Source: a virus
Taxonomy: Duplodnaviria > Caudoviricetes
Virus record (IMG/VR): IMGVR_UViG_3300024252_000005
Reading direction: 5' to 3' (one strand)
DNA: 64,000 nucleotides
The position numbers and the translations under genes are program-made. Positions 1 through 17,299 of the stretch are shown here, one piece after another. Below the pieces are notes generated by a model that was not told the DNA's origin, did not search any database, and was given only the letters and a program-made list of their open reading frames with translations. The number at the start of each line of letters is the position of its first letter. Position 1 is the stretch's first letter.

Positions 1-10
1 TTATGTTCTT

Positions 11-40
11 ATTATATATCAATGCAAGTTAAGTTGCACG
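11..40 (-). promoter_or_regulatory. Promoter copy P1 CGTGCA-N18-TATAAT
   Basis: Read directly on reverse complement; its gene lies left of the window. Confidence 0.8.
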
Positions 41-238
41 TTATAGGTAACTCTCTGTCTCTGTGATGTATGTGTTGATTGGAGTGAGTTGCTCACCAGT
101 ATGCAGTGTCATCCACTTATCCTGAACGTGAGTATATCCAGAACTCTTAAGCTCTTTAAGCTTATTAACACGTTGCTCAACGTCGTGGGGAAGATTAATG
201 TTTTGATCATCTTGATCGTAGTGGACATGAAATACCAT
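41..238 (-). CDS. Hypothetical early protein (65 aa)
   Basis: ORF track; AAGGA RBS upstream; lies directly downstream of promoter copy 272-302; stop codon abuts the next promoter copy. Confidence 0.7.
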   Translation of the reverse strand: MVFHVHYDQDDQNINLPHDVEQRVNKLKELKSSGYTHVQDKWMTLHTGEQLTPINTYITETESYL

Positions 239-271
239 GTTAAGTTCCTTTAGTGATATGGATTATGGTTT

Positions 272-302
272 ATTATAATACCTTTATTAACTGAGTTGCA
301 CG
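272..302 (-). promoter_or_regulatory. Promoter copy P2 CGTGCA-N19-TATAAT
   Basis: Read directly; the only copy with a 19-nt spacer. Confidence 0.75.
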
Positions 303-322
303 CCAACTCGACGACCCAGAGC

Positions 323-847
323 CTATGCAGGCTGTGTAAGATCCTCGTTGCGTGCCTTAACATCCTCTAGGAAATCAAGGATCTTCTTCTCATGGCCGTC
401 AATGTGCGAAGTATCGAGACCACCAGAAGCCTGAACATCACGCATCTTGTCGAGGCGAAGCTGAAACCATTGGAATCCGTCAAGCAAGATAGTCTTTGGT
501 GAAATGTTTACCGGAGTAAACTCTTCGCTCATATCGATGTCTTTGTTGTTCATGTGATCCCATTTGTTGACACCGTGATAGTGACCCAAGATGTCTTCAT
601 AATCAGTACAATTCGACCAACCTGAGTTCCAGTAAACGTAGCCATGAACTTCTTTCATGAAAGCGTTCGCATCGTTGAATGACTTGCGAAGACCCGGATC
701 AAGTGACTCGATGAAGTTGTCACGGATATCTCTGAGCTCTTGCGTCTCTCGGAATCGTTCACGTGGTGTCTCAATTGAGCTCCACTTTTCGTTATACGTA
801 TTGTGGTTATATGTAATTGTATCTCGAACTTGTTGTCTCGTTGGCAT
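323..847 (-). CDS. Hypothetical early protein (174 aa)
   Basis: ORF track; AAGGA RBS between the upstream stop (859-861) and ATG. Confidence 0.8.
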   Translation of the reverse strand: MPTRQQVRDTITYNHNTYNEKWSSIETPRERFRETQELRDIRDNFIESLDPGLRKSFNDANAFMKEVHGYVYWNSGWSNCTDYEDILGHYHGVNKWDHMNNKDIDMSEEFTPVNISPKTILLDGFQWFQLRLDKMRDVQASGGLDTSHIDGHEKKILDFLEDVKARNEDLTQPA

Positions 848-858
848 GTCAGTTTCCT

Positions 859-1047
859 TTAGTGAAGTGTTTTACGAATAGGCAGAGCGATAGAGTCATC
901 GTACGACTTAAGAAGCTTTCGAACTTCTTGACGATCAATACGCGTGAAAAGTCGCAACTCATTACGACCAACTGCTGTATAACCAAGTCGTTTATTTGTA
1001 TGAGATCGCGAACCGAGGCGATGAGAGTGTCGATTAATTGCTGCCAA
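859..1047 (-). CDS. Small basic hypothetical protein (62 aa, TTG start)
   Basis: AAAGGA 7 nt before TTG, downstream of promoter 1081-1110; preferred over the overlapping 849..1052 frame. Confidence 0.55.
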   Translation of the reverse strand: MAAINRHSHRLGSRSHTNKRLGYTAVGRNELRLFTRIDRQEVRKLLKSYDDSIALPIRKTLH

Positions 1048-1080
1048 GTCACTGTCCTTTGTTGATGTTGATTATGGTTT

Positions 1081-1110
1081 ATTATACCACGTCGTTAAAC
1101 GTATTACACG
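1081..1110 (-). promoter_or_regulatory. Promoter copy P3 CGTGTA-N18-TATAAT
   Basis: Read directly on reverse complement. Confidence 0.8.
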
Positions 1111-1335
1111 TCAAATGATCTTGGTTGTCGGGTTCTGATCGTCCATCACACCATCACAAATCTCTCCTGGGTCGAATTCGTAGAGATGAAAACTCCCGTC
1201 GCTCATAACAACTGTTATTACGTTACCACGCGTCGTCACAGTCTTTACTTCACGAGGATTCACGTTCAATTCGTCACACACTTCTTGAAGGTCGATCTCT
1301 ACTCGAGTTGAGTAAGTTATTTGAATCGTTGACAT
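1111..1335 (-). CDS. Hypothetical early protein (74 aa)
   Basis: GAAAGG RBS; own promoter at 1384-1413; stop abuts next promoter. Confidence 0.75.
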   Translation of the reverse strand: MSTIQITYSTRVEIDLQEVCDELNVNPREVKTVTTRGNVITVVMSDGSFHLYEFDPGEICDGVMDDQNPTTKII

Positions 1336-1383
1336 AGTTAACCTTTCGAAACGTCGTTAATGATTGGTTGTCCTTACATCTAT

Positions 1384-1413
1384 ATTATAGACTAAGGTAT
1401 TGTTATTTGCACG
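1384..1413 (-). promoter_or_regulatory. Promoter copy P4 CGTGCA-N18-TATAAT
   Basis: Read directly on reverse complement. Confidence 0.8.
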
Positions 1414-1448
1414 CCGAGCTCGACGCTACAAGCCGTAGCCACTGCGAA

Positions 1449-1850
1449 TCAGTAACCCATGACTTCGTTGTAAGCTTCACACCCACCCATCATACCAGCC
1501 TCCATCGCGATCTCACGTCTCCAGTCTTCCATCCAGTCATCGTCATCACCATCCTCCGTCGCTTCACGAACAAGCTTGATGTCGTCAGTGTCCCAAGGAT
1601 TGAACTTTTGACCATATCTCACACCGCCGTTGAGGAGCTCCATATTCTTTCCCATGGCGTTTTCCTTGTCCTCCCAGTCTTCGCCTTCGTAAACCCAGAT
1701 CGCGTCACCATCACCACACCTCGCAAGACTCACCAACTCTTCGAGAGTATACTCTCTGCCCACCTCGAGAATAACCGTGTCACACCAGTCGTCGTTGTGA
1801 ATTGGGTCGACGTTGCTCCCAGTAGTCATTAAACATTTGATGATTCCCAT
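1449..1850 (-). CDS. Acidic, Trp-rich hypothetical early protein (start reassigned to ATG 1850)
   Basis: GAAAGG RBS sits just before ATG 1850, not before GTG 1868; own promoter at 1900-1929. Confidence 0.75.
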   Translation of the reverse strand: MGIIKCLMTTGSNVDPIHNDDWCDTVILEVGREYTLEELVSLARCGDGDAIWVYEGEDWEDKENAMGKNMELLNGGVRYGQKFNPWDTDDIKLVREATEDGDDDDWMEDWRREIAMEAGMMGGCEAYNEVMGY

Positions 1851-1899
1851 AGTAAAACCTTTCGTCACGTTGTTAATGTTTGTTTGTCCTTACATCTAT

Positions 1900-1929
1900 A
1901 TTATAGACTAAGGAATTGATTGTTACACG
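1900..1929 (-). promoter_or_regulatory. Promoter copy P5 CGTGTA-N18-TATAAT
   Basis: Read directly on reverse complement. Confidence 0.8.
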
Positions 1930-1945
1930 TCGTTTCGACGACGTG
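1926..1945. terminator. Perfect 8-bp hairpin CACGTCGT-TTCG-ACGACGTG overlapping the -35 of P5
   Basis: Perfect inverted repeat downstream of the 2022..2801 gene; no U-tract, so terminator function is uncertain. Confidence 0.35.
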
Positions 1946-2021
1946 GAGCCTTGTCACGGCGAATCAGATCTTTGTAAGATCGATCCTATCGAAGCGAGGC
2001 CAAACGACCTAGGTCTTTGAA

Positions 2022-2801
2022 TCAGAAGATGTCATCGTTGAGGTCGTCGTCGTAGTCATCCTCGAACTCGTCGTTACTGAGGCCTTGTGATGAGAGGTAA
2101 GCTTCCCAAGCTTCAGGATCATCAGAGTCAGGGACATCACTCGGAGTCTCGTCGTCTGGTGTCTCCACCTCGTCAACGACTTCAGTTGTCTCGGTCTCCT
2201 CAGCTTCAGGCTCTTTGGCTTCGCTCGGTGAGGCAATGACCTCGAGCTTCTCTGAGTGGGGAGTTCCTCCTAATGGAGAGATCACATCGTCAAGTCCAAC
2301 AGCAGGTAAGATAAGCAACTGCCTTTGATGATCATCTTTGGATCCACTTGTTCGAACTTCGAAGGCTGCCATATGAGCCTTGCTTTTAGGGTCGACGCGA
2401 GGTCCTGAGTAGCGAACCCATGCGTAGCCAGCTTGCGTCGTCCATGCCTTGTAGGCTGAGCAATCGATGCCATCCTCCTCGAACTCGTCAAGACTTGGGT
2501 TAACGACGTCAAGGGCAACTTGAACCCACTTCGCTCCGCGACCAGCAAACATTGCCTTCTGCTCACGACGCCAATCGGAGCCAGATCCATTGGCAGTCTT
2601 GCCAGATCCTGAGCAAAGGTGCTTGATGTCAGTCTTGATGAGACCATCAATATGCTTCTTGAAAGCAGTTACCTTAGGATCGCCTCCAGCTGCAATAAAC
2701 TGCTCGAACAAAGCTTTAATATGATTAACTTCTGTCATTGTATCCTCAATTGTTGGGTTTGATGTTGGGATGTTTTGGGTAGATTGAGTATCAGTTGTCA
2801 A
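2022..2801 (-). CDS. Hypothetical early protein with long acidic C-terminal tail (259 aa, TTG start)
   Basis: AGGAG RBS 5 nt before TTG; own promoter at 2833-2862; D/E-rich last ~70 aa. Confidence 0.8.
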   Translation of the reverse strand: MTTDTQSTQNIPTSNPTIEDTMTEVNHIKALFEQFIAAGGDPKVTAFKKHIDGLIKTDIKHLCSGSGKTANGSGSDWRREQKAMFAGRGAKWVQVALDVVNPSLDEFEEDGIDCSAYKAWTTQAGYAWVRYSGPRVDPKSKAHMAAFEVRTSGSKDDHQRQLLILPAVGLDDVISPLGGTPHSEKLEVIASPSEAKEPEAEETETTEVVDEVETPDDETPSDVPDSDDPEAWEAYLSSQGLSNDEFEDDYDDDLNDDIF

Positions 2802-2832
2802 AATGACTCCTAAATGGTTGGGGTGATGTTTT

Positions 2833-2862
2833 ATTATAATAGGATTAGATTAATGTTACACG
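2833..2862 (-). promoter_or_regulatory. Promoter copy P6 CGTGTA-N18-TATAAT
   Basis: Read directly on reverse complement. Confidence 0.8.
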
Positions 2863-2936
2863 ATAGATGATGGACCTGTTGTTTCCTTAATAATTAACTT
2901 TGATTCATATTTAACTCCTTTCCTCTAGTACTTTTT

Positions 2937-2966
2937 ATTATACCATCTGTCTCAATTAGTTACACG
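2937..2966 (-). promoter_or_regulatory. Promoter copy P7 CGTGTA-N18-TATAAT
   Basis: Read directly on reverse complement. Confidence 0.8.
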
Positions 2967-2992
2967 ATCCAACTCGACGACCCGAAGGGCTG

Positions 2993-3058
2993 TCAACGCA
3001 AGTTCTCGAGATCAATGATGATCGATGCAGCTAAGAAGAGAATAATCAAGGTAAGCAT
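2993..3058 (-). CDS. 21-aa hydrophobic mini-protein MLTLIILFLAASIIIDLENLR
   Basis: Below ORF-track cutoff; GAAAGG RBS 6 nt before ATG; dedicated promoter copy 3122-3151; hairpin after the stop. Confidence 0.5.
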   Translation of the reverse strand: MLTLIILFLAASIIIDLENLR

Positions 3059-3121
3059 ATGATGCCTTTCAACTTAAGGCTCTAACATGAGGACGAAGGC
3101 CTCGTTTTTGCCTGACCTGTT

Positions 3122-3151
3122 ATTATATAACCTTCAGGCGATAGTTACACG
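3122..3151 (-). promoter_or_regulatory. Promoter copy P8 CGTGTA-N18-TATAAT
   Basis: Read directly on reverse complement. Confidence 0.8.
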
Positions 3152-3303
3152 ATTAATACGCCGGACGCCAGAGTTCTCACATCATCACCAAGAAACGTGT
3201 AACTTGGTAATTCAACTGACCGGGAAACCAACGATGTCAAAGATCTGAAGGGAAGAGGCATGCCTCTTTTGGAACCACCGTTCCTATCCCCCCTTATGTT
3301 CTT

Positions 3304-3333
3304 ATTATAATATGCCACGTCGCCGGTTACACG
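3304..3333 (-). promoter_or_regulatory. Promoter copy P9 CGTGTA-N18-TATAAT
   Basis: Read directly on reverse complement; rightmost copy, abuts the GC-rich junction. Confidence 0.8.
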
Positions 3334-3470
3334 TAGGCCCCGGGGCTCTAGAGGGCCCCTTTTAGGCCCCCTCTGCGTGTATCTAAAACTCAGTGGGACT
3401 CCGGCCCAGGGGGGGTTTAGTCCGCTACCAGCATTTTCTTCCCGGGAACTTTTCGAAAAGCTTTTAGGTA
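3334..3470. other. GC-rich, palindrome-dense junction between divergent genome blocks
   Basis: GCCCCGGGGC, GGGCCC, and abutting/overlapping palindromes TTCCCGGGAA (3439-3448), CTTTTCGAAAAG (3449-3460), AAAAGCTTTT (3456-3465); strand and composition switch here. Confidence 0.7.
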
Positions 3471-3584
3471 TCACATTTGAATACATCTAATTTGTGAAAA
3501 AAACTCCAGGAGACTTTTTTAATAACTTTTTGATATTTAGAGATATATTTATATTTAGTTATATTAATAGAAAGAGTTTTAAAT

Positions 3585-4280
3585 ATGAGAATAACTGAGA
3601 GTAAATTACGAAGTTTGATAAGGAGTGTGATTAAAGAAACATTTGATCACGTAGGAAAATTTGCCGCAATGTATATGATGCCTAAAAGAGGAATATCATC
3701 AAGAGATATTAAAAACTTATGTCCTTCTAGAGAATGTGAATTTATATCTGTTGGAAATGTTGACAGTTATGATAGTTATAGACCTTTTGAAGATGATCAT
3801 GGTTTTTTCATAGATGCTTTTGAAAATTGTGTTAATCAAATTGACATAGGCGAAGGAAACGAAGAAGCTGAACGTGTTGTTAGTAGTTCTGGTTTTGTTA
3901 GTAGTATTATGCCTTTAAAAGTTTTTTATGATTCTAATGATGGTGGTCGTTTAGTATACTGTACAAAAGGTACCTTTAATACATCAGAGGGTGAAGGAAA
4001 TGTTTGGTTTAGTTTACCTATAGATACGCAAAAGTTTGAAAGAAGATGTAATAATGAGTTTGGTCAAATCAATTCATCAGGAGTTGAATATGAATCAATG
4101 ATTCATTCTAGAGAAAGAGAAGAGCAGGCAAAAAGAAGAGATAGATTAGATCGAGAATTTGGTCGAGGAGTCTATGCTAATCCTTACTCAGGAGAGACAG
4201 AAGCAGAAACTAGAGCAAGACTTCGAAGAGATGATACTGAGCGTGATCATCTAAGAAAAATTAGAAAAGAAATGCTTTAG
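3585..4280 (+). CDS. Leader-bearing hypothetical protein (MRITESKLRSLIRSVIKE...)
   Basis: ORF track; shared N-terminal leader. Confidence 0.85.
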   Translation: MRITESKLRSLIRSVIKETFDHVGKFAAMYMMPKRGISSRDIKNLCPSRECEFISVGNVDSYDSYRPFEDDHGFFIDAFENCVNQIDIGEGNEEAERVVSSSGFVSSIMPLKVFYDSNDGGRLVYCTKGTFNTSEGEGNVWFSLPIDTQKFERRCNNEFGQINSSGVEYESMIHSREREEQAKRRDRLDREFGRGVYANPYSGETEAETRARLRRDDTERDHLRKIRKEML

Positions 4281-4411
4281 TATTTGCAAATAATTTAATT
4301 CTTGTCGAGCTGGGTGTCTCCTGAGTCATGACGTTTATGTGAGTTAAATATTTTATATTGACATGATTAAACATATGTAGTTGTGTTGAAATATTTAACA
4401 GGGATAACATT

Positions 4412-4915
4412 ATGAATCGAAAAGAAACAAAATTATTGGTTGAAGGTTGGAGAAATCTATTAAAAGAGACGCGTGAGACTGCAATAGCTAGTGATGTTGA
4501 AGTGGTATTTCCTGATGGCATACCGGAAGACTTGTTAATGAAGGGAGATTCTGATGGTGAGATAAGTGGTTTTGTTTATCCTCATGATGTGAGTAGAGCT
4601 CGAGGGGGAATATATTGGAGAGGTGACTTAGTTGGGTTTATGACGCCTAGAGAAGAGAAAGGCGGGTGGAGAGTTGGAGCTGTTTATATTGATAGTGAAG
4701 CGAGAGAGAGAGTCAAGGGTATAGGGAGTATAGCGATATCGAAGTTTTTCGAGTGTAGAGAAGCTGCTGATTTGCTTATTGGAGTCGATAATATTTCTTC
4801 GCAGAGAGCGTTTAGTAATGCTGGATTTGAAGATACAGGAAAGAAGTATGTTGATAAAAGTGATGGTTGGGAAGCGACTGTGTGGAGTAGGGTGTCTCTA
4901 GAGTCACAGACGTAA
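4412..4915 (+). CDS. GNAT-family acetyltransferase with N-terminal KLLVEGWRNLLKE leader
   Basis: Motif A-like VYIDSEARERVKGIGS and motif B-like NISSQRAFSNAGFE. Confidence 0.75.
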   Translation: MNRKETKLLVEGWRNLLKETRETAIASDVEVVFPDGIPEDLLMKGDSDGEISGFVYPHDVSRARGGIYWRGDLVGFMTPREEKGGWRVGAVYIDSEARERVKGIGSIAISKFFECREAADLLIGVDNISSQRAFSNAGFEDTGKKYVDKSDGWEATVWSRVSLESQT

Positions 4916-5051
4916 CAGAATAGTTTTGAGTTTGTTAAACTGTTTTGCTGAATTTGTGAAAAAAACTTCGGGAGAAATTTCGGAAAACTTTTTGTATGTT
5001 TAGTAATAAATAGAGTTATACAATATTGTTAAACAAAGAGAGGCTTAAGGA

Positions 5052-5153
5052 ATGAAAATAACTGAGAGAAGATTGAGAAGTCTTATAAGACAAGTGGTGG
5101 TTACAACACGCCCGGGAATCCTGACGATTATTGATCTTATTGTTAATTTATAG
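5052..5153 (+). pseudogene. Leader-only remnant ORF MKITERRLRSLIRQVVVTTRPGILTIIDLIVNL (33 aa)
   Basis: Read by hand; AAGGA RBS; leader intact for ~15 codons, then unrelated sequence and a stop that runs into module X. Confidence 0.6.
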
Positions 5154-5255
5154 AGCTGGGTGCCTCCTGAGTCACGACGTTTATGCTTGTTAAATGTTTT
5201 ATATTGATTTGATTGTATATATATAGTTATGCTATAAGTTTAAGCAGGAGACAAT

Positions 5256-5657
5256 ATGAGAATATCTGAAAGAAGATTAAGATGCATGATAAGAGAAATT
5301 ATTATTGAGAGTGGAGAGGTTGATCCTTGGGTAAAAATCCAGAGAGACAATATAAATAAAGCAAATAGAAATATAGAGTCTCAGTATACTGTTGATGATG
5401 ATGAGACGGTCTTGGGCGTAGGATTATATGACTATGCTATTAGAGTTTTAGATAGATGTTCAAGCTTAGACTATACTAGGACATTTGTTGATGATGATTC
5501 AATGTTTTTGAAAGAGCCAATACAGATTGGAAAATCTTATAGAGACTTAGTTGATATTAGAGATGTTTTGAATAATTGTTTTAAAAATAGCATGTCTATA
5601 AGAGACTGTGCTGATGATTGTATTTTAAAATGGAAGAATATTAATAATATTAATTAA
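5256..5657 (+). CDS. Leader-bearing hypothetical protein (MRISERRLRCMIREIIIE...)
   Basis: ORF track; AGGAG RBS; shared leader. Confidence 0.85.
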   Translation: MRISERRLRCMIREIIIESGEVDPWVKIQRDNINKANRNIESQYTVDDDETVLGVGLYDYAIRVLDRCSSLDYTRTFVDDDSMFLKEPIQIGKSYRDLVDIRDVLNNCFKNSMSIRDCADDCILKWKNINNIN

Positions 5658-5670
5658 GTAGAGATAAAAT

Positions 5671-6468
5671 ATGTTGTTAAGAGAATATGTTTCGCGATAT
5701 ATTAAAGAAGCTATATCATATAGCTTGTTAAATTTAGTTTCAACAGAGTTGAATAATATAACGAAAAATTATAAAGTTTCGAATAATAATCATCATATAT
5801 ATTATGATTTAGTTAAAGTTGTTGACAAGTTTGGTCTTAAGCCTATAGGCGCTGGAGTTTATCGTCATGTATATTCTATACCAGAAGAGGATTGGGTTTT
5901 AAAGTTTTCTTATGAAGGTAGTGGAGGCGAGTGGGCAAATGCTGAAGAGGTTGCAATTAGTGTTGGAAGTCACGGAATAGGAGCGCGAGATTTATTTGTT
6001 AAGATATTTGAATGGGACAAGATAAGTGAAAATCCAGAATGGATTATTGCAGAAAAAGTGATAACATTATCAGCAGCTGGAAGATCAATGTCATTTTCAG
6101 TCTTAAAGAAAATATTTCCTACTTTTTGGGATGCGTTATATAATGATGCAAACGAAAAAACTTCTGTCAGCTTTTTCTGTGATTTTGTTGCTGATACTTT
6201 GCGTGAGCTTAGTATAGAATCTGAGCCAGAGCAAAATGCTAGCGGCTTAAATGCTGAAGCATTTTATATTGCAATGAAGGAAGCAGCAATCTCAGAATTA
6301 AACATCATGCCTTTTGAAGCAATTAGATTTAGTGAAGATTTTTATATAATTGCTAGAGCATGTGCATATAGCAGGCCAGATGACATGCATAGCGGTAATA
6401 TTGGAATAATACCTTCAAGCCAACCTAGCCCAAAAGACATTGTTATTCTTGATTATCTAATATCTTGA
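5671..6468 (+). CDS. Protein-kinase-like fold protein
   Basis: Gly-loop GAGVYRHVY, VLK lysine, alphaC-like E, hinge WIIAEKV, catalytic DMHSGN, DFG-like ILDY. Confidence 0.75.
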   Translation: MLLREYVSRYIKEAISYSLLNLVSTELNNITKNYKVSNNNHHIYYDLVKVVDKFGLKPIGAGVYRHVYSIPEEDWVLKFSYEGSGGEWANAEEVAISVGSHGIGARDLFVKIFEWDKISENPEWIIAEKVITLSAAGRSMSFSVLKKIFPTFWDALYNDANEKTSVSFFCDFVADTLRELSIESEPEQNASGLNAEAFYIAMKEAAISELNIMPFEAIRFSEDFYIIARACAYSRPDDMHSGNIGIIPSSQPSPKDIVILDYLIS

Positions 6469-6508
6469 AACATATATAGATATATTGAAAGATTAAACAG
6501 GAGTTAGT

Positions 6509-7804
6509 ATGTACATGACAGAGTGTAGACTGAGACAGATTATAAGAAGCGTTTTGATTGAAAACAGAAAGAATAGTATTTTAAAAGAAAGTAATGGATT
6601 AAAAAAAAGCATCCATGTTGATATGTTTACTACTTTTTGTGAACTAACTTTTTATCTTAAGAATGCTTTGCTTAATGAAGATGCTTCTCACAGTGTGTTT
6701 TTTTTTATTGCAAGTAAAATTTTAAGAAAAACTCATGAACCTATTTATATTAATGAAAACTTTATATCAAAGTCTAAAGAATTTTTAAAAGCAATTGGTG
6801 AAGTATTTTCAGTATATAAAAACAGTCTAGATGATGACTTACTTGATGAAAAAAATATTAATGTTTCAAATTATTTAGACGAAAATTATTCTTTTAGAAG
6901 TGATAGTAGAATAGCTTTGGAGAAATATTTTAGTTTAGTTTTGTATTTGAAAAGCAATGCAAATTTTCAAAAGTGCCTAAACGTTTTAAAAAAAAGGTTA
7001 AAGTCTATATCTATTTTTGATGAGTTTAATATTAACAATGTCAAAGGAAAACAATTAATCAATACAGCAACAGAGTTTTTAAATTACTTTTCTAAAGTAA
7101 ACAAGCTTTTAGATAAAAATAAAAAAGATTTCCCTTCAGAAGGAAGAACAAATATTGTCAAAGTTTTAAAAGTCATAGACAGATATTTAGAGAAATTACC
7201 AAAGAGCGTTGACATAGAAGCTCAAGAAATATTTGAAAAAGGTTTTATATTACAACGAAAATGGATGATTTTTACTAAAACCATAGAATCAGAAGATAAA
7301 GTGATTTATACAGAGCAGCCTTTTGATTTGAGTAGGATTTCTAGCATAGCGCTGAAGCAAGGATTAAAACCTGATGGTGTTTGGTATTCTTTTGGTAATG
7401 ATTGGGATGATTTCTGTCAGCAAAATAGATTTAATACTAATAAATATAATTTCAAGTATCTTATAGAAGTTGATGAATCTAAAATTTTTACAATTAGTGA
7501 TGAAAGTGATCTTAAGCAATTTGAAAGCTTATATTATATTGAACCTGATGAGATTGGTTTAGATTATATTGATTGGGGAAAAGTTGAAAATGACGGGTAT
7601 TCTGGTTTTCAAATAAAAAACTGGGATACTTTAATGTATAAAGCAATAAAAAATATGCAAACAGGACAAAACTGGCTATCAAAATATGATATTAGTTCTG
7701 GATGTATATGGAATAAAAATGTCGTAATAGATTTTCATGATTTGAGCTATAAATATACACCTGCTATTTTTGCACGTAACAAGCAAAAATTAGAAAATCT
7801 ATAG
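6509..7804 (+). CDS. Leader-bearing protein with C-terminal KPDGVWYS...IDW...GYSGFQI domain of unknown function
   Basis: ORF track; AGGAG RBS; leader MYMTECRLRQIIRSVLIE. Confidence 0.8.
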   Translation: MYMTECRLRQIIRSVLIENRKNSILKESNGLKKSIHVDMFTTFCELTFYLKNALLNEDASHSVFFFIASKILRKTHEPIYINENFISKSKEFLKAIGEVFSVYKNSLDDDLLDEKNINVSNYLDENYSFRSDSRIALEKYFSLVLYLKSNANFQKCLNVLKKRLKSISIFDEFNINNVKGKQLINTATEFLNYFSKVNKLLDKNKKDFPSEGRTNIVKVLKVIDRYLEKLPKSVDIEAQEIFEKGFILQRKWMIFTKTIESEDKVIYTEQPFDLSRISSIALKQGLKPDGVWYSFGNDWDDFCQQNRFNTNKYNFKYLIEVDESKIFTISDESDLKQFESLYYIEPDEIGLDYIDWGKVENDGYSGFQIKNWDTLMYKAIKNMQTGQNWLSKYDISSGCIWNKNVVIDFHDLSYKYTPAIFARNKQKLENL

Positions 7805-7881
7805 TTTAAAAAATAATTGAAGAAATAGGCGGTTGTGAAGCGTGGATAGATAAATTGTATTAAAGATATTTTTAAATAATG

Positions 7882-8827
7882 TGTTGATAAATATATAATA
7901 GATAAAAGGAGTTTATTTATGCGTATTACTGAAAGGAAACTAAGAAATATTATAAAAAGTATTATTTGTGAAAAAAGGAGTAATAAGAAATTAAATGTTG
8001 AAATTGATAGACGAATACTAAAACAAGTAGAATATATGTTTGAATATAATTATTCTATTTTTGTAGAAGACAAAGAAAACCAATTAATTGTAGCTATGCA
8101 TAAGATGGATAGAGTTCGTAAAAGCCAAGAAGAACGTAAATTAAATACAATTGGAAGATTTAAAAGAAAGCCTGGCAAAAAAGTTGGTTCTGTTATTTTT
8201 GATAAATACACCAGAAAAGAAGGTAAAGTAATTCCTTTAGGGGTTAAAGTTGGTGGTAGTAAAAGAAAAGGTGTTTGGTGCGTTGGTTTATCAGAGCTTA
8301 AAAATCATGATGAATTAGGTTTAGGGCCTATCATGTATGAAGTTGGTATAGAGTATATAAGTAGGCATAAAAACTGTGCTGTTGGTGCTCATTTTAATGG
8401 TGGTTCATCTAAACATGCTTTTAGAGTCTGGGAAAAATTTGACAACAGAGAAGACTTTGAAAAATATCAATTTGATATAGATTTAGATTACGAAGACTTT
8501 AAGGGTAACAAGAGAGAGGAAAATAATTTAACAAAAAATATTTCTCAAATAACACCTGAAGATGATAGTGATGATATTGGATTTGGTTTGAACAACTTAA
8601 ATTACACTTTGAATTTAAAAAAGTCTGAATTTGTAAAAAGTTGGTTTAAATCACCTTTGACAAGAGGTTTTTTTAACAATAAAGGTAGAGTTATTAAGCT
8701 GTTACATTCTAAAGATTTAATATTTAAATGTTGACATTAATTAAGTATAGATAGATTATGTTGATAAATATATAATAGATAAAAGGAGTTTATTTATGCG
8801 TATTACTGAAAAGAAACTAAGAAATAT
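7882..8827 (+). repeat. 69-bp near-exact duplication (7882-7950 and 8759-8827; 1 mismatch) covering promoter region, AAGGAG RBS and the first leader codons
   Basis: Direct comparison; first 53 bp identical. Confidence 0.9.
7919..8734 (+). CDS. Leader-bearing protein, possible GNAT-like domain
   Basis: Leader MRITERKLRNIIKSIICE; GLGPIMYE...SSKHAFRVWEKF resembles GNAT motifs A/B. Confidence 0.6.
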   Translation: MRITERKLRNIIKSIICEKRSNKKLNVEIDRRILKQVEYMFEYNYSIFVEDKENQLIVAMHKMDRVRKSQEERKLNTIGRFKRKPGKKVGSVIFDKYTRKEGKVIPLGVKVGGSKRKGVWCVGLSELKNHDELGLGPIMYEVGIEYISRHKNCAVGAHFNGGSSKHAFRVWEKFDNREDFEKYQFDIDLDYEDFKGNKREENNLTKNISQITPEDDSDDIGFGLNNLNYTLNLKKSEFVKSWFKSPLTRGFFNNKGRVIKLLHSKDLIFKC

Positions 8828-9536
8828 CATAAGATATGTTTTGGCTGAAGCTGTTGTGCGACCAAAAGCTAGAGTAGATCATAAATTTATGTTCGATCAA
8901 TGGTTGCACACTGTATTTTTAGGTGTTGAAGATAATTTTAGACCTTACGTCAAAGCTGTATATAAGACAAAATCAAAGCAAGACAGGCTTTTAGCGAGAT
9001 GGATGCTGCTTAAGAGTAAAAAGAATCAAACTAACGAACCATTAGAAGTATTTTATGAATATATTAGCAATAGAGTAGAAAACAATGGAGATCTTTTTAA
9101 AAAAGAAATGCTAGGTGACTTTTTCATGGATAATGATGTTAATCCTTATGATATATTTTATTATTTGAAATATTTTATTAAACCTAAAAAAGATTTTAGC
9201 AAATTCAATAAAAATAAAATTCCTTCATCTACTGCTTCTTCTAAAGATTTTGCTATTGAAATTGATGTATTGGGTTGGGATATGTTAAAGTCAGTTAGAG
9301 AAAAGTACGGAAATGAAAGACTTGATCTTAATAATTTACAAGATAAAACTCATATTGACAATGATATGTATAATGATGATAGTGATGAAGTGCTCAAGAG
9401 ATTTTGCAAATTAATTGGAATTGACTTTAATGACAAAAGAGCACTAGCAAACTACTTTTCAGATCAAGCTGCTTCTTCAGGCGTTGATAGCTGGGGAAAT
9501 AGATTACCTAAAATAGATACTTACGAAGAACAATAA
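8796..9536 (+). CDS. Leader-bearing hypothetical protein (MRITEKKLRNIIRYVLAE...)
   Basis: ORF track; shared leader. Confidence 0.85.
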   Translation: MRITEKKLRNIIRYVLAEAVVRPKARVDHKFMFDQWLHTVFLGVEDNFRPYVKAVYKTKSKQDRLLARWMLLKSKKNQTNEPLEVFYEYISNRVENNGDLFKKEMLGDFFMDNDVNPYDIFYYLKYFIKPKKDFSKFNKNKIPSSTASSKDFAIEIDVLGWDMLKSVREKYGNERLDLNNLQDKTHIDNDMYNDDSDEVLKRFCKLIGIDFNDKRALANYFSDQAASSGVDSWGNRLPKIDTYEEQ

Positions 9537-9550
9537 AAAGGATACTAAAT

Positions 9551-9931
9551 ATGAGAATTACAGAGAAAAAATTAAGAAAGCTAATAAGAGAAACAATAGA
9601 GTCAACAATGAGGGAGTCAGATTATGACGAGTATAGCTCAGACCCTAGATTTAGAGATTTTGGAGATTCTGCAGCTATTGGGAGTGAAGATGACGAGCTA
9701 GAAGATAATGACATGTACGCTGAAGAACACTACATGTCTGACATGGAATCTTCTGATTTAAATTCATCTGGTACTTCTGGAATAGTACCAGATGACCTAG
9801 ATGATTGGAGAAATACAGATTCATACAGGGGTTTAGATGATGAAGAATTACAACCAGATGATTATAATCTAGATTTAATTGAAGACCCTATGTATATGGA
9901 TGCAGAAGATACTGATTATTTTGAAAACTAA
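9551..9931 (+). CDS. Leader-bearing, extremely acidic small protein
   Basis: Leader MRITEKKLRKLIRETIE; roughly one third D/E after the leader. Confidence 0.85.
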   Translation: MRITEKKLRKLIRETIESTMRESDYDEYSSDPRFRDFGDSAAIGSEDDELEDNDMYAEEHYMSDMESSDLNSSGTSGIVPDDLDDWRNTDSYRGLDDEELQPDDYNLDLIEDPMYMDAEDTDYFEN

Positions 9932-9933
9932 GT

Positions 9934-10089
9934 TTAATTATTGCATAATACATTTACTGACTTGTCTATTTTAAGACGCTCTTCAGCTGTGAATGTATTT
10001 CTTTTAACAGCTTCTTCTAGAATAGCTATTAATATGTTAACACATTTAACTTGATTGTGGTTTATAACATATAAATTTATTTTTGTCAT
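9934..10089 (-). CDS. Small helical hypothetical protein (51 aa, MTKINLYVINHNQVKCVNILIAILEEAVKRNTF...)
   Basis: Read by hand; fills the gap exactly; below ORF-track cutoff. Confidence 0.5.
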   Translation of the reverse strand: MTKINLYVINHNQVKCVNILIAILEEAVKRNTFTAEERLKIDKSVNVLCNN

Positions 10090-10107
10090 GATATTTATTT
10101 TATTGTT

Positions 10108-10350
10108 ATGAAAAAGTTTTATATATTATTGATAGTTTTGTTTTCTTTTACAATTAATTGTGATGACAAAAATAACAACGAAGATAAAAAGTCTTCTGAG
10201 TGTCAAAAAATAATAGAAAAAGTTGAAGATTGCATGAATTTACACAGAGGAGCATTTAGTTATATTAATTCATGTGGAAAAGTAGAAATAAATGAAGTTA
10301 ACAGACTAAATTCATGTGATCAGTTATTAGAATATATTCTTGGCAAGTAA
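10108..10350 (+). CDS. Putative lipoprotein
   Basis: MKK + hydrophobic stretch ending TINC (lipobox-like Cys), followed by several Cys. Confidence 0.6.
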   Translation: MKKFYILLIVLFSFTINCDDKNNNEDKKSSECQKIIEKVEDCMNLHRGAFSYINSCGKVEINEVNRLNSCDQLLEYILGK

Positions 10351-10352
10351 AG

Positions 10353-11120
10353 TTACCAACTAAAAATTATTCCACCTTTCAGCATAAAGTCTGTATTTTC
10401 TACTTTTTCTGACGGTACTGTGTCGTACAAATAAGTAATAGCTGTATCTATTCCTAGACTATATTCACTTCTATTAACAATAGAAGATCTAAGTTTAATC
10501 TCGCTATTAATTCTATAGTCACTATGATTAAACAATAAGGGCTGATAGTAAGTTACAACAGAGACAAAACTGGAATCATTTTCATTGAAATATTTTGTTA
10601 AAGTAAAATAAGAAGTTATTCTTGAGTGTGTTGTTGTTTCATAAGATAATTGCTCATGATCTGACATTATGCCTAAACCTGAAGATATTTGGAAAAGATT
10701 ATTGTTTTGTAGAGGCTTTTCAAATCTTATACCGACACCATTGAGTTGTCTTAAGCTTAAGTCTCTAAATTCATTATACTGAGTTTGAGTAAATATTTCA
10801 TATCCTAAAAATTCATGCAACATAATAGTATATCTAAAGTGGACAAAAGCGTTATTCTTGTAAATCTCTTTGTCTTGAAATCCTTTGCTTGCTGAACCCT
10901 TTAGCAAGATATGATTTTTGTTTAATTTATAGTGTAAGTCTTTTTTAATTTCGTATACTTGAGAATTAACATTGCCTTTTTGAAATTGAATATTTACTTT
11001 AAACTCTCCGTAAAAGCCTGTTTTAGTTGCTGAGTTCCTAAAAGATTCAATGTTTACTTGCGCAAACAAAGTATTGCAAGAAAGCAATACTATTATTAAT
11101 GTTGATATTATGCTTTTCAT
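10353..11120 (-). CDS. Outer-membrane beta-barrel protein, DUF481-like
   Basis: Cleavable signal peptide (...TLFA|QVNIE), alternating hydrophobic beta-strand pattern, C-terminal aromatic motif IIFSW. Confidence 0.65.
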   Translation of the reverse strand: MKSIISTLIIVLLSCNTLFAQVNIESFRNSATKTGFYGEFKVNIQFQKGNVNSQVYEIKKDLHYKLNKNHILLKGSASKGFQDKEIYKNNAFVHFRYTIMLHEFLGYEIFTQTQYNEFRDLSLRQLNGVGIRFEKPLQNNNLFQISSGLGIMSDHEQLSYETTTHSRITSYFTLTKYFNENDSSFVSVVTYYQPLLFNHSDYRINSEIKLRSSIVNRSEYSLGIDTAITYLYDTVPSEKVENTDFMLKGGIIFSW

Positions 11121-11137
11121 TTAAATTCCATTTGATC

Positions 11138-12532
11138 TTATAAGTTTCTCTGCAATTTGGGAAATACAGCTTTTAAGTTTTTAGGTAGTTTAACTCTACT
11201 ACTGTTTTTAATTTGATCTATAACTTCTTTAGACAAAGTTATGGCTTTAGGAGCAGATCCAAATATTTCTTTAAGATTAAGTATTTGTGCAATTTCTGGC
11301 ACACCTTTTTTACTCCCATCAATATATTTTTTATGTGAATAAACTGTGCCCCCACCACCTTCTGTATTTCCTTCTACAGTTTCATACCACATTCTACCTG
11401 ATTTGTTGTCTATTCCTACATCTTTGACAATAGCAAAATGTTGTGCATAAGGAGAATGTTTTTTAGGATAAAGTGCAACTATGCTCCCAACGAACAATAC
11501 TTTTTTAATTGCATTTGATTTTTCTTTAATAGATCTGTCTTTAAAATCTTCATGATTATAAGCCATATCTTCGCTATCTATATAATTTTTATATACTCGG
11601 CGAGCGCTAGCAAAAGATGATATTTTCGTATCTATTTCACCTCTAGATAGAATTCCAGCAATCATTACACCACACCAAGATACTTTCTCTAGACTGTCTG
11701 GAACTTTATCTGTGCTTATTCCTAAATCATTTTTTATATTTTTATAAAGGTCTTCTGTGAGCCATACTGTAATTGTGTTAGTTCTTGCAGTTGAAGCAAT
11801 AGATGAAACCATTGCTGAATATTCTTTCCATTTAGGGTGAGACTGACATTCTTTTTTAATTTCTGACATTTCTTTGTTTGATTCTATTGATTTCCCATCG
11901 TTAACTGTATACTTATAGAACAACTTGTATCTATTTTCTCTATTTAGCTCTAATGCTCTTTGACCCTTTTTAGCGCTACCTATTGTCTGGTAAAGTAATT
12001 TGTTTTTTGCAAAAAGTGTAGTTATCCATATAGATTTAAGATAAGGGTCGTTTTGATACTCTTGATAATCAGAAGTTTGTCCTTTGGCCGCTGACAAGAC
12101 TTTTCTAACTTTTTCTACTTGTTCCTCTATTTCTTTTGCTTTGTTTAACTTGCTTTTTAATGAAGCACCTTTTACTTTGCCTCTTTCAGAATATTTTTCT
12201 ATGTCTTTTTTTATTTCGTCAATTAACTCTTTTGGTGACTTCTTGCTCTTGTCAACAGTACCTGAATCACCGTCAACAGAAGCTATTTTTTCTAAATGCT
12301 TTATAGAATCCTTAGGCATTTCACTACTGATATCGCTCGTAGAATTACCAGCTAATATACCAGTTCCTATACCTGAGAGTAGAGCTGCCAAAGCTAACTC
12401 TTTTGTTCCTTCATTTAACAAAAGATCTTCTTCTATTTGTTCAAACAGCTTATCACTTTTATATGAAACATTATTTTTTTTCATTGACAATAGCTTTTTA
12501 TATGTTTCTATTTCTAGACTTTTTACTTTCAT
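11138..12532 (-). CDS. CHAP-domain (Cys/His amidase-peptidase) protein, possibly virion-associated
   Basis: SWCGVMIA (Cys), QHFAIV (His), ETVEGNT; N-terminal LLLNE followed by a hydrophobic segment. Confidence 0.65.
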   Translation of the reverse strand: MKVKSLEIETYKKLLSMKKNNVSYKSDKLFEQIEEDLLLNEGTKELALAALLSGIGTGILAGNSTSDISSEMPKDSIKHLEKIASVDGDSGTVDKSKKSPKELIDEIKKDIEKYSERGKVKGASLKSKLNKAKEIEEQVEKVRKVLSAAKGQTSDYQEYQNDPYLKSIWITTLFAKNKLLYQTIGSAKKGQRALELNRENRYKLFYKYTVNDGKSIESNKEMSEIKKECQSHPKWKEYSAMVSSIASTARTNTITVWLTEDLYKNIKNDLGISTDKVPDSLEKVSWCGVMIAGILSRGEIDTKISSFASARRVYKNYIDSEDMAYNHEDFKDRSIKEKSNAIKKVLFVGSIVALYPKKHSPYAQHFAIVKDVGIDNKSGRMWYETVEGNTEGGGGTVYSHKKYIDGSKKGVPEIAQILNLKEIFGSAPKAITLSKEVIDQIKNSSRVKLPKNLKAVFPKLQRNL

Positions 12533-16200: not shown

Positions 16201-16250
16201 ACTTATTACTTCTTAAATGTATAGTTATAATTATAATGTAGGAGTCTTAC

Positions 16251-16532
16251 ATGCAAGACAAAATGCCCTTGAAATCAAAAAAGTTCATTGCTTATCTATT
16301 AGCAGAGTTTGGATGGAAGTTAATAATTTTATTCCTGTTGTATCAAATACAAGGAAAGATTGATCATTATTCACTTGCGCTTTTAGTTACAACTGTCATA
16401 GTATCTGGATTCATTCAGATAGGTTATATACTAGGACAGGCAGCGCTGGACAAATATGTTAATGCTGCAGTAGAAATATTTGATAAAGACGAAGAAAAGC
16501 CAATAGAGCAACAAAAAAATGAAAAAAAATAA
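16251..16532 (+). CDS. Small 2-TM membrane protein, holin-like
   Basis: AGGAG RBS; two hydrophobic helices, charged C-terminal tail. Confidence 0.55.
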   Translation: MQDKMPLKSKKFIAYLLAEFGWKLIILFLLYQIQGKIDHYSLALLVTTVIVSGFIQIGYILGQAALDKYVNAAVEIFDKDEEKPIEQQKNEKK

Positions 16533-17016: not shown

Positions 17017-17261
17017 ATCTTAGATTTCCAAATATTTCTTTCTTTATACATTAAATCAAAAAATGCTTGCATTACTTCTTTAGATACTTCTTCAATTTTT
17101 TTTTCATAGTTTTTGTCTATATCTTTTAAATCTTTAAATTCTTTTTTAACAATTGATTTTATTTTTTTCTCCAACTCTTTTTTCTTGAAATCTTTTATTT
17201 CTTTTTTAATCATTTTTTTTATTTTTGATATATCTTTTCTTGTCAAATCTTCATTAATCAT
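17013..17261 (-). CDS. Small Lys/Glu-rich helical protein (MINEDLT...)
   Basis: ORF track. Confidence 0.65.
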   Translation of the reverse strand: MINEDLTRKDISKIKKMIKKEIKDFKKKELEKKIKSIVKKEFKDLKDIDKNYEKKIEEVSKEVMQAFFDLMYKERNIWKSKI

Positions 17262-17299
17262 TTATTATAAACCTTTAAAGTTGAAAGCAAATTTATTAT

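What the first reader, a model, noticed from the sequence alone, without database searches (positions are those of the whole stretch)
3585..9931. Modular leader + cargo array: candidate capsid-targeting system loading diverse effectors into the virion
Seen: seven ORFs in a row start with variants of one basic amphipathic leader (3585 MRITESKLRSLIRSVIKE, 5052 remnant, 5256 MRISERRLRCMIREIIIE, 6509 MYMTECRLRQIIRSVLIE, 7919 MRITERKLRNIIKSIICE, 8796 MRITEKKLRNIIRYVLAE, 9551 MRITEKKLRKLIRETIE). In five of them (I/L)16-x-E18 is exactly positioned. The two interleaved genes have other leaders ending LKE/IKE. After the leader the proteins are unrelated (kinase-like, GNAT-like, acidic, unknown). Established: T4 internal proteins carry a short N-terminal capsid-targeting sequence removed by the gp21 prohead protease at (I/L)-x-E and are injected with the DNA; IPI* blocks GmrSD restriction. 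Inference: a distinct, longer targeting peptide used to package a swappable arsenal of host-modifying or anti-defence enzymes.
Basis: partly seen in the sequence, partly recalled or inferred. Interest (0 to 1): 0.9.

Follow-up and report, generated by a model that had tools for sequence, protein, structure and literature searches.

The report
Shared leader tag on phage proteins
An uncultured marine T4-like jumbo phage puts the same 18-19-residue N-terminal helix on a row of unrelated proteins, and the tag looks like a new, longer version of the phage T4 signal that loads proteins into the capsid for injection with the DNA, though no cleavage or packaging has been shown.

Summary
Six full ORFs and one 33-aa remnant at 3585-9931 begin with M-R-I-T-E-x-K/R-L-R-x-I-I-R-x-V-I-x-E-S, and there is no other copy in the 64 kb. 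Two interleaved ORFs carry other leaders ending LKE/IKE.

A leader profile finds 991 protein clusters (E<=0.001) among 1.84 billion representatives. Nearly all match at residue 1, and the cargos are unrelated, small and free of Pfam domains. Synonymous codons vary freely, so it is the peptide that is selected.

The tag is essentially virus-only. All five carrier contigs that are at least 41% complete and contain a head module, including a complete 239.5-kb relative, encode a T4 gp21-type (S77) prohead protease. None encodes a radical-SAM enzyme.

The leader end (Q/S)-V-I-K-E|S closely matches the conserved Q-V-L-K/R-E|S at the end of the capsid-protein propeptide. Homologous cargos carry interchangeable leader classes. 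T4's own ipII and ipIII genes show the same layout.

Best reading (about 0.55): a new capsid-targeting, protease-removed leader family. This rests on sequence comparison only. The scan has flagged the same kind of leader system before on other phage DNA, with different leader sequences. I found no paper describing this motif.

The parts
3489..3584 (+). Upstream cassette 'Y' of the first leader gene. It is a conserved intergenic block and a promoter-like region.
   Evidence: Direct repeat D4, 3489-3532 with 4951-4994, 82% identity. The same block precedes leader genes in L007, L004 and L011. There is no significant RNA fold.
3585..4280 (+). Class A leader (3585-3641) plus a 231-aa cargo of unknown function.
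   Evidence: 44.8 bits. Orthologues with 90-93% identity over the leader region (residues 1-40) exist in other metagenomes. No Pfam or PHROG family.
4302..4402 (+). Intergenic cassette 'X', repeated at 5148-5248.
   Evidence: Direct repeat D3, 78% identity. Related sequence lies upstream of leader genes in L007, L004 and L002. No stable fold.
4412..4915 (+).
   Evidence: The same leader class heads other cargos in L007 (7772, 8987) and in G007, where such genes sit just downstream of the capsid gene. No Pfam hit.
4951..5051 (+). Second copy of cassette Y, containing AATAAATAG.
5052..5153 (+). Remnant: a class A leader followed by only 14 further codons. The E18 is lost.
   Evidence: 40.8 bits.
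5148..5248 (+). Second copy of cassette X.
   Evidence: D3.
5256..5657 (+). Class A leader (5256-5312) plus a 133-aa cargo of unknown function.
   Evidence: 41.5 bits.
5671..6468 (+). Class C leader (MLLREYVSRYIKE|A) plus a 265-aa kinase-like cargo.
   Evidence: The Atlas lead is Phage_T7_kinase. A weak match to phrog_4301. The homologue in G007 (36.9% identity, E 4e-43) carries a class B leader instead.
6509..7804 (+). Class A leader variant (MYMTECRLRQIIRSVLIE|N) plus a 431-aa cargo.
   Evidence: 42.6 bits. The C-terminal part matches phrog_8582, of unknown function, at 6e-12.
7859..7918 (+). Upstream cassette shared with 8736-8795 (GATAAATATATAATAGATAAAAGGAG).
   Evidence: Direct repeat D2, 114 nt at 82% identity, runs into the leader.
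7919..8734 (+). Class A leader (7919-7975) plus a 271-aa GNAT-like cargo.
   Evidence: With the leader removed, the cargo is homologous to L007 proteins that carry class B and class C leaders (E 4e-10 and 3e-9). Orthologues carry several leader types. In the AF2 model the leader is a helix at residues 5-19, followed by a low-confidence linker at 16-27, with the next helix of the cargo at 31. Foldseek top hits are nearly all GNATs but weak.
8796..9536 (+). Class A leader (8796-8852) plus a 246-aa cargo of unknown function.
   Evidence: 42.4 bits. No family and no phage-database match.
9551..9931 (+). Class A leader, one residue shorter (MRITEKKLRKLIRETIE|S), plus a 126-aa strongly acidic cargo.
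   Evidence: 38.0 bits.

Best explanation
The 18-19-residue leader M-R/K-I-T-E-S-K/R-L-R-x-I-I-R-x-V-I-x-E-S is a portable N-terminal propeptide. It works like the capsid-targeting sequence (CTS) of the phage T4 internal proteins.

Proposed mechanism, all steps inferred:
1. The leader forms a basic amphipathic helix that docks the attached protein onto the assembling prohead core.
2. After the shell closes, the T4 gp21-type (S77) prohead protease cuts after Glu18 of V-I-x-E|S, and possibly also after Glu5 of R-I-T-E|S.
3. The mature, mostly small cargo stays in the head and enters the next host cell with the DNA.

What is shown:
- The leader is a peptide-level, N-terminus-only, sharply bounded module on hundreds of unrelated cargos.
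- It is exchangeable with two other leader classes that share only helix character and a hydrophobic-hydrophobic-x-Glu end.
- Carrier phages are T4-superfamily jumbo phages with an S77 protease.
- The capsid protein of these phages has a near-identical motif where its propeptide should be cut.

The locus is a hot spot. Cassettes consisting of a conserved upstream block, a leader and a variable cargo are swapped there, as in the T-even ip loci.
For: (1) Module nature.
- The profile search gives 991 clusters at E<=0.001, nearly all matching at residue 1.
- Among 146 top hits, I3, E5, L8 and I12 are invariant and V15, I16 and E18 are above 94%. Residue 19 is Ser or Asn in 112 of 146. Conservation vanishes at residue 20, followed by a stretch rich in Asp, Gly, Pro and Ser.
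- Cargos have a median length of 114 aa and fall into 116 BLAST families among 141. Only 3 marginal Pfam hits were found in 150 proteins.

(2) Peptide-level selection. Invariant residues use synonymous codons freely: third-position entropy is 1.0-1.3 bits, Leu is coded TTA or CTA, and Arg is coded AGA or CGT.

(3) Leader swapping.
- The 7919 cargo family carries class A, B, C and other leaders.
- The kinase-like cargo has class C in the window and class B in G007.

(4) Protease.
- PF03420 (S77) is present in G001, G006, G007 (complete, 239.5 kb), G008 and G009 at E 1e-28 to 1e-29.
- The window is syntenic with G007; core proteins are 37-74% identical.

(5) Site match.
- The capsid protein is a T4 gp23 homologue (E 1e-33).
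- It has conserved ...AAQVL(K/R)E|SS 11-19 residues before the start of the conserved fold, followed by a linker of variable length.
- The leader end is (S/Q)-V-I-K-E|S.
- The protease's own N-terminus has (L/I)-I-T-E|W. This parallels T4 gp21 LIE-9 (PMC9026906) and the invariant I-T-E|S at leader residues 3-5.

(6) Genome-wide signal in G007.
- 69 of 284 proteins have hydrophobic-hydrophobic-x-E ending at residues 8-26. Within-N-terminus shuffles give 37.4 +/- 5.6, and the rate is 2.4 times the internal rate.
- These include head-module proteins and class B leader genes directly downstream of the capsid gene.

(7) T4 control. ipII and ipIII share MKTYQEFIAE|A and a conserved upstream promoter block, and ipI ends I-T-E|A. 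The literature describes the Ips as unrelated except for the packaging leader (PMC12373910; PMC9026906).

(8) Distribution. One hit in 185,579 prokaryote species genomes against 29 IMG/VR loci.
Against: - There is no virion proteome, no observed cleavage and no cultured carrier. The leader has no tblastn match in 50,697 phage records.
- The class A genes are not in the head module. In the window they sit next to a strand switch and a block of small leftward genes with sigma-70-like promoters.
- Their own upstream blocks only approximate the TATAAATA element. That element precedes the capsid, scaffold and tail genes in G007. No T4 gp55 homologue was detected, so late expression is not shown. 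This objection is weakened by the fact that the T4 ip genes also have early-type promoters.
- The leader has no sequence similarity to the T4 CTS and is strongly basic, unlike it.
- If all N-terminal helices of this type are tags, about 10% of the proteome would be head cargo. That set includes HAD-like enzymes, which is a lot.
- The exact capsid-protein cleavage site is inferred, not known.
Confidence: 0.55

Rival explanations
1. The leader is a shared interaction or regulation helix on host-takeover proteins that are made after infection and never packaged. Examples would be a handle for a common host or phage partner, an oligomerisation helix, or a degron that times their removal.
For: - The genes have their own promoter-like cassettes. 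They lie beside an apparent early region with small leftward genes carrying GTGYAA-N18-TATAAT-type promoters.
- The kinase-like cargo resembles T7 gp0.7-type kinases, which are early and not packaged.
- Leader-like N-termini also occur on metabolic-type enzymes such as a HAD-like protein in G007.
Against: - This reading does not explain the invariant terminal Glu followed by Ser, or its match to the capsid propeptide end.
- It does not explain why three leader classes of different charge (+4 to -2) are interchangeable on one cargo.
- It does not explain why head-module proteins and genes next to the capsid gene carry the same kind of N-terminus.
- T4 ip genes also have early-type promoters, yet their products are packaged.
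Confidence: 0.25
2. The leader is an in-plane amphipathic membrane-targeting helix that brings diverse proteins to the inner membrane.
For: Class A is a cationic amphipathic helix with hydrophobic moment 0.62 and net charge +4. AF2 predicts a helix at residues 5-19.
Against: - The interchangeable class C leaders are acidic with a low hydrophobic moment (0.12, charge -2).
- The strictly conserved I-T-E and E18-S19 have no role in membrane binding.
- Many cargos are highly acidic, soluble-looking proteins.
Confidence: 0.07
3. The leader is a recognition sequence for one dedicated modifying enzyme, in the manner of RiPP systems. An earlier follow-up in this scan proposed this for a radical-SAM-linked tag in phage RB43.
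For: The logic is one tag on many unrelated proteins. The earlier scan finding e1-127136 shows that such tags can have non-capsid explanations.
Against: No Radical_SAM (PF04055) gene was found in the complete genome G007 or in G001, G006, G008 and G009, while the same search rings in 14 of 14 control genomes. The enzyme that does co-occur with the leader is the S77 prohead protease, which is the best explanation itself.
Confidence: 0.05
4. The conserved element acts at the nucleic-acid level, as a translation-initiation or repressor operator, or as a recombination homology block. On this reading the peptide is incidental.
For: Upstream DNA is also repeated (families D1-D4). Cassettes X and Y recur across contigs. 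This recalls the PeSL-mediated shuffling of T4-like phages (PMC4122927).
Against: - Synonymous sites inside the leader are close to saturated while the amino acids are invariant.
- The leader occurs behind unrelated upstream sequences and in genomes from 27 to 51% GC.
- Cassettes X and Y show no significant RNA structure (z from +0.2 to +1.75).
- Recombination at the cassettes may still explain how cargos are swapped.
Confidence: 0.03

Closest known systems
Phage T4 / T-even internal proteins (Ip1, Ip2, Ip3 and the polymorphic ip loci) with the capsid-targeting sequence removed by prohead protease gp21
   Same: - A short N-terminal leader shared by otherwise unrelated, mostly small proteins.
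- The leader ends in (L/I)-x-E.
- The phage has a gp21-family protease and a gp23-family capsid protein.
- Genes sit in tandem with conserved upstream cassettes in a variable hot spot.
- I verified the T4 layout on T4 DNA itself: ipII and ipIII begin MKTYQEFIAE|A behind similar promoter blocks, and ipI ends ITE|A.
- The literature describes these proteins in these terms.
   Different: - There is no sequence similarity to MKTYQEFIAE.
- The leader is 18-19 residues and strongly basic, with two invariant (I)-x-E|S motifs.
- Cargo diversity is orders of magnitude larger: 991 clusters against about 10 Ips.
- At least three interchangeable leader classes exist.
- Carriers are uncultured marine phages of 240-255 kb.
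- Packaging, cleavage and injection are unproven here.
Propeptides of head and ejection proteins of giant phages phiKZ, 201phi2-1 and SPN3US (cleaved at S/A/G-x-E or A-x-E)
   Same: - Jumbo phages with many head-internal proteins that are processed after Glu by a T4-related prohead protease.
- Identical N-termini on diverged paralogues (SPN3US gp53 and gp54) are read as CTS-like (PMC5694885).
   Different: - Those propeptides are mostly longer than 100 residues and are not one stereotyped leader on unrelated cargos.
- The P3 residue is small there, not Ile or Leu.
- Those phages are chimalliviruses with virion RNA polymerases.
PeSL promoter-terminator cassettes that mediate modular shuffling in T4-like phages (Comeau, Arbiol and Krisch 2014, PMC4122927)
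   Same: Conserved intergenic blocks flank swappable genes in a hyperplastic region. Blocks X and Y recur in the window and in related contigs.
   Different: No stable stem-loop was found. Here the conserved unit extends into the coding sequence as a selected peptide.
Encapsulin cargo-loading peptides
   Same: A short terminal peptide directs diverse cargo into an HK97-fold shell. This comparison is conceptual and rests on my own knowledge.
   Different: Encapsulin peptides are usually C-terminal, are not cleaved, and the cargo is not delivered to another cell.

Membership tests
T4-type capsid-targeting sequence (CTS) / internal-protein system | A short leader (10-19 aa) at the extreme N-terminus | tested here: met
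   The leader is 18-19 aa. Nearly all of the 150 listed top matches start at residue 1 of the protein. All 7 window copies lie at ORF starts.
T4-type capsid-targeting sequence (CTS) / internal-protein system | The leader ends in the prohead-protease motif (L/I)-x-E | tested here: met
   I/L16-x-E18 is present in 5 of 7 window copies. I16 is found in 138 and E18 in 143 of 146 top hits. A second invariant I3-T4-E5 is also present.
T4-type capsid-targeting sequence (CTS) / internal-protein system | The same leader sits on proteins with no other similarity | tested here: met
   116 families among 141 cargos. Mean column identity outside the leader is 5%. The window cargos are unrelated.
T4-type capsid-targeting sequence (CTS) / internal-protein system | The phage encodes a gp21-family (Peptidase S77) prohead protease and a gp23-family capsid protein | tested here: met
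   Met in relatives. PF03420 is found in G001, G006, G007, G008 and G009. The capsid protein matches T4 gp23 at E 1e-33. The window's own head module lies outside the window and I could not read it. An unchecked first-stage note (e1-5410832) places a capsid protein, protease and scaffold beyond its end. The window is syntenic with G007.
T4-type capsid-targeting sequence (CTS) / internal-protein system | Sequence homology to the T4 CTS MKTYQEFIAE | tested here: not met
   The T4 ipI, ipII and ipIII N-termini read from T4 DNA show no similarity beyond the terminal (I)-x-E. This is therefore a functional analogue or a separate family, not a sequence member.
T4-type capsid-targeting sequence (CTS) / internal-protein system | The proteins are physically in the head, with the leader removed, and are ejected with the DNA | not testable with these tools
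   This needs virion mass spectrometry and genetics. No cultured carrier was found.
RiPP-like recognition tag served by a radical-SAM enzyme | A radical-SAM/SPASM enzyme is encoded alongside the tagged genes | tested here: not met
   PF04055 is absent from G007 (complete) and from four other carriers. The control search rings in 14 of 14 control genomes.
PeSL (promoter-early stem-loop) shuffling cassettes | A conserved intergenic block with a terminator stem-loop plus an early promoter, flanking variable genes | tested here: inconclusive
   Repeated blocks are present. The folds are no better than shuffles. The promoter class is unresolved.
Sec/Tat signal peptide | A hydrophobic core after a basic N-region | tested here: not met
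   The leader is amphipathic with mean hydrophobicity -0.42 and no hydrophobic core. It is followed by acidic or polar sequence. One cargo (P0106) has a separate Tat-like motif after the leader.

The most novel reading that the evidence does not exclude
The class A leader, together with the interchangeable class B and C leaders, is a general capsid-loading and injection code of a large clade of uncultured marine T4-superfamily jumbo phages. It would tag about a tenth of each proteome. It would also define, from sequence alone, an 'injectome' of about a thousand unrelated protein families delivered with the DNA. Those families include kinase-like and GNAT-like enzymes and at least one protein with a downstream Tat signal. 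This is far beyond the handful of internal proteins known in T4.
Probability: 0.45. Interest if true: 0.8.

Novelty: new variant of a known kind. Interest (0 to 1): 0.62.

Why it matters
Injected phage proteins act before any phage gene is expressed. In T4 all three internal proteins turned out to be specific inhibitors of GmrSD restriction enzymes (PMC12373910). They are normally impossible to recognise from sequence.

If this leader is a packaging signal, a simple profile would label about a thousand families of first-strike proteins in abundant, uncultured marine phages. That would give a ready catalogue for finding anti-defence and host-takeover functions. It would also provide a portable tag for loading foreign proteins into large capsids.

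The work further shows that the T4 CTS principle may be widespread and much expanded in jumbo relatives. If the reading is false, the leader still marks a very large undescribed family whose shared N-terminal helix needs another explanation.

Tried and rejected
- **Complex prediction.** I tested the G007 scaffold-like protein against leader residues 1-45. The result was no verdict (score 0.00, both folds low-confidence). It is evidence neither for nor against binding.
- **Pfam on the eight window proteins.** No families.
- **PHROGs on the eight window proteins.** Only two hits to families of unknown function.
- **blastn and tblastn of the region, a cargo and two leader versions against 50,697 phage records.** Nothing relevant.
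- **Word-based homologue search restricted to the leader.** Only close orthologues, because the tool needs several shared 5-mers.
- **Literature search for the motif strings and DUF5661.** No paper found.
- **Whole genome of the window.** Not held. An exact 41-mer from the window is not in IMG/VR. The look-up of encoding contigs returned only a 9.9-kb copy. I therefore could not read the window's own protease.
- **T4 gp55, gp45 and gp44 against G007 by phmmer and tblastn.** No significant hit, so a T4-type late transcription system is not shown.
- **Promoter typing.**
  - TATAAATA is enriched before the capsid, scaffold and tail genes of G007 (11 genes against 4 expected).
  - Class A genes carry only 7/8 variants inside a shared cassette.
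  - I rejected promoter class as a deciding argument either way, because the T4 ip genes have early-type promoters.
- **Rfam on 1-12000.** Only a sub-threshold snoRNA-model match, taken as chance.
- **RNA folds of cassettes X and Y.** No better than shuffles.
- **Radical-SAM rival.** Rejected.
- **P1' Ser after [LIV]-x-E in head-core proteins.** Only modestly enriched (17.7% against 9.5%, p=0.03). I treat this as weak.
- **AF2 model of the 7919 protein.** Low quality (mean pLDDT 55). Fold matches are weak, so 'GNAT' remains a lead.

Full report
**What is in the sequence**

The window is part of an AT-rich (about 28-30% GC) phage genome.
- It encodes a helicase closest to those of jumbo phages.
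- It also encodes PhoH, glycosyltransferases, very large virion proteins and a baseplate wedge protein.
- One of its proteins is on record on a 255,678-bp contig.

Between 3585 and 9931 all genes run rightward.
- Six full ORFs (3585, 5256, 6509, 7919, 8796, 9551) and a 33-codon remnant (5052) begin with variants of MRITExKLRxIIRxVIxE(S). A six-frame scan finds no further copy in the 64 kb.
- Two interleaved ORFs begin with other helices: MNRKETKLLVEGWRNLLKE|T (4412, here class B) and MLLREYVSRYIKE|A (5671, class C).
- The proteins are otherwise unrelated and have no Pfam family.
- The upstream DNA is also repeated, as blocks X and Y and a 114-nt repeat before 7919 and 8796.

**The leader is a peptide module**

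In 37 distinct nucleotide versions of the leader, the invariant residues are encoded by freely varying synonymous codons. Third-position entropy is 1.0-1.3 bits. Leu8 is coded TTA or CTA. Arg is coded AGA or CGT. This excludes an RNA operator or a DNA repeat as the selected unit.

A profile of 26 leaders was searched against 1.84 billion representative proteins. It finds 991 clusters at E<=0.001, and nearly all match at residue 1. Among the top hits:
- I3, E5, L8 and I12 are invariant.
- V15, I16 and E18 are above 94%.
- Residue 19 is Ser or Asn in 112 of 146.
- Conservation stops abruptly at residue 20, where a stretch rich in Asp, Gly, Pro and Ser begins.

The cargos are small (median total length 114 aa). 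They form 116 BLAST families among 141, and only 3 marginal Pfam hits were found in 150 proteins.

An AF2 model of the 7919 protein has low overall confidence. It shows the leader as a helix at residues 5-19, then a low-confidence linker at residues 16-27, with the next helix of the cargo at residue 31.

**Leaders are interchangeable**

With the leader removed, the 7919 cargo is homologous to two proteins of the syntenic contig L007. Those proteins carry a class B and a class C leader (E 4e-10 and 3e-9). Its orthologues in metagenomes carry class A, class B-like and other leaders. The kinase-like cargo has a class C leader in the window and a class B leader in G007.

The classes differ in charge, from +4 to -2. 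They share only helical character and an end of the form hydrophobic-hydrophobic-x-Glu followed by a small polar residue.

**Who carries it**

- Degenerate DNA patterns find 29 IMG/VR loci, many with several leader genes.
- The same kind of pattern finds a single contig in one genome each of 185,579 prokaryote species.
- No cultured phage in INPHARED matches.
- CheckV-based completeness puts the carrier contigs at genome sizes of about 240-270 kb for the AT-rich group and up to about 360 kb for the higher-GC contigs G006 and G009.
- All five carrier contigs that include the head region encode a Peptidase_S77 (T4 gp21-type) prohead protease at E about 1e-28. These are G001, G006, the complete 239.5-kb G007, G008 and G009.
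- None of them encodes a radical-SAM enzyme. This removes the RiPP-like rival raised by an earlier finding of this scan.
- The window is collinear with G007 over more than 50 kb, with core proteins 37-74% identical. The leader array corresponds to a G007 region that also holds leader-tagged genes.

**Link to head maturation**

The head module of G001 and G007 runs in this order: terminase, portal, a 277-283-aa protein, S77 protease, several small proteins, an acidic scaffold-like protein, and the capsid protein.

The capsid protein is a gp23 homologue (E 1e-33). In four genomes its N-terminal region ends in conserved AAQVL(K/R)E|SS. A linker of variable length follows, and then the conserved fold begins.
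- This is the last (L/I)-x-E before the fold.
- It is where T4 gp23 is cut.
- It closely matches the leader end (S/Q)-V-I-K-E|S.

The protease itself begins with (L/I)-I-T-E|W. This echoes T4 gp21 LIE-9 and the invariant I-T-E|S at leader residues 3-5. Small head-module proteins start with helices that hold several such sites.

In G007, 69 of 284 proteins have a hydrophobic-hydrophobic-x-E motif ending at residues 8-26.
- Shuffling within the N-termini gives 37.4 +/- 5.6 proteins.
- The rate is 2.4-fold above the internal rate.
- The set includes class B genes immediately downstream of the capsid gene.

**The T4 benchmark**

Read from T4 DNA, ipII and ipIII begin with the identical MKTYQEFIAE|A. 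They lie behind similar promoter blocks of the early type. ipI begins with a 19-residue leader ending I-T-E|A.

Reviews and a 2025 study describe these proteins as unrelated except for the leader that directs packaging. They are cut by gp21 after Glu and injected with the DNA. All three inhibit distinct GmrSD enzymes. Many further ip genes in T-even phages were recognised by the leader alone.

The locus studied here has the same architecture, with an unrelated, longer leader and a far larger cargo repertoire.

**What remains open**

- Nothing shows that the proteins are in virions or that they are cut.
- Expression timing is unresolved. TATAAATA precedes the capsid, scaffold and tail genes of G007 (11 genes against 4 expected). 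Class A genes carry only 7/8 variants inside cassette Y. No gp55 homologue was found.
- A complex prediction gave no verdict.
- The cargo functions are leads only.

I therefore hold the capsid-targeting propeptide reading at about 0.55. A non-packaged shared helix on host-takeover proteins stands at about 0.25, and minor rivals fall below 0.1.

**Novelty**

The principle is known from T4. This scan has flagged similar leader systems, with different sequences, on other phage DNA. This particular leader, its scale and the interchangeable classes were not found in the searchable literature. I rate it a new variant of a known kind.

Noticed in passing
window 1-3480: A block of small leftward genes at 42-44% GC contrasts with 27-34% elsewhere. 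Its promoters are of the form CGTG(C/T)AA-N18-TATAAT. The same GTGYAA-N-TATAAT class precedes about 21 genes in the complete relative G007, mostly small genes at 206-234 kb.
   Followed up: partly
window 2801-3584: About 780 bp without a convincing gene at the strand switch, with GC-rich palindromic stretches. The minus-strand ORF 3145-3486 has a look-alike in L007 (2338-2493). The region is therefore conserved, and it may be non-coding DNA rather than a gene. No Rfam match.
   Followed up: partly
window 2022-2801 (-): A 259-aa protein with an acidic tail ending DDIF. It is conserved in L007 (1143-1775) and in G007 (206798 and 210137). The first stage flagged it as SSB-like.
   Followed up: no
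window 10353-11120 (-): A phage-encoded DUF481 protein with a signal peptide (Pfam 1e-14). It is conserved next to the leader array in L007 and G007. This suggests a Gram-negative host.
   Followed up: no
window 15334-16200 (-): A weak match, just below threshold, to the adenylate/guanylate cyclase catalytic domain (E 2e-4, 21.5 bits against a cut-off of 21.9). It is conserved in G007 at 45% identity.
   Followed up: no
L005 3684-4289 (+) and 6927-8225 (-): In a higher-GC carrier contig, two unrelated proteins end with the same C-terminal motif, LRTY(I/V)(K/R)..I.AG. Several large proteins there start with leader-like helices. This may be a C-terminal counterpart of the tag.
   Followed up: no
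P0106 (metagenomic protein): A class A leader is followed directly by a Tat-like signal (SRRGFLQGLG... then a hydrophobic stretch). If the leader is clipped, a normal Tat N-terminus would remain.
   Followed up: no
L047 245-1003 (Flavobacterium phage immuto, MW353176 113144-113902): A cultured T4-superfamily phage has an ORF starting MKKSQLRQIIKEAL followed by DUF5661 (9.6e-10). This is a weak leader variant (12.4 bits) and a possible experimental handle.
   Followed up: partly
G007 16091-17910 (L031): Five consecutive small genes begin with class C-like leaders of the type M..LLE.(Y/F)I.E(I/F)(L/I)..E. This is a second leader array in the complete relative.
   Followed up: no
window 19433-20626 (+): A 397-aa protein has a weak PHROG match to a GroEL-like chaperonin family (1.5e-8).
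   Followed up: no
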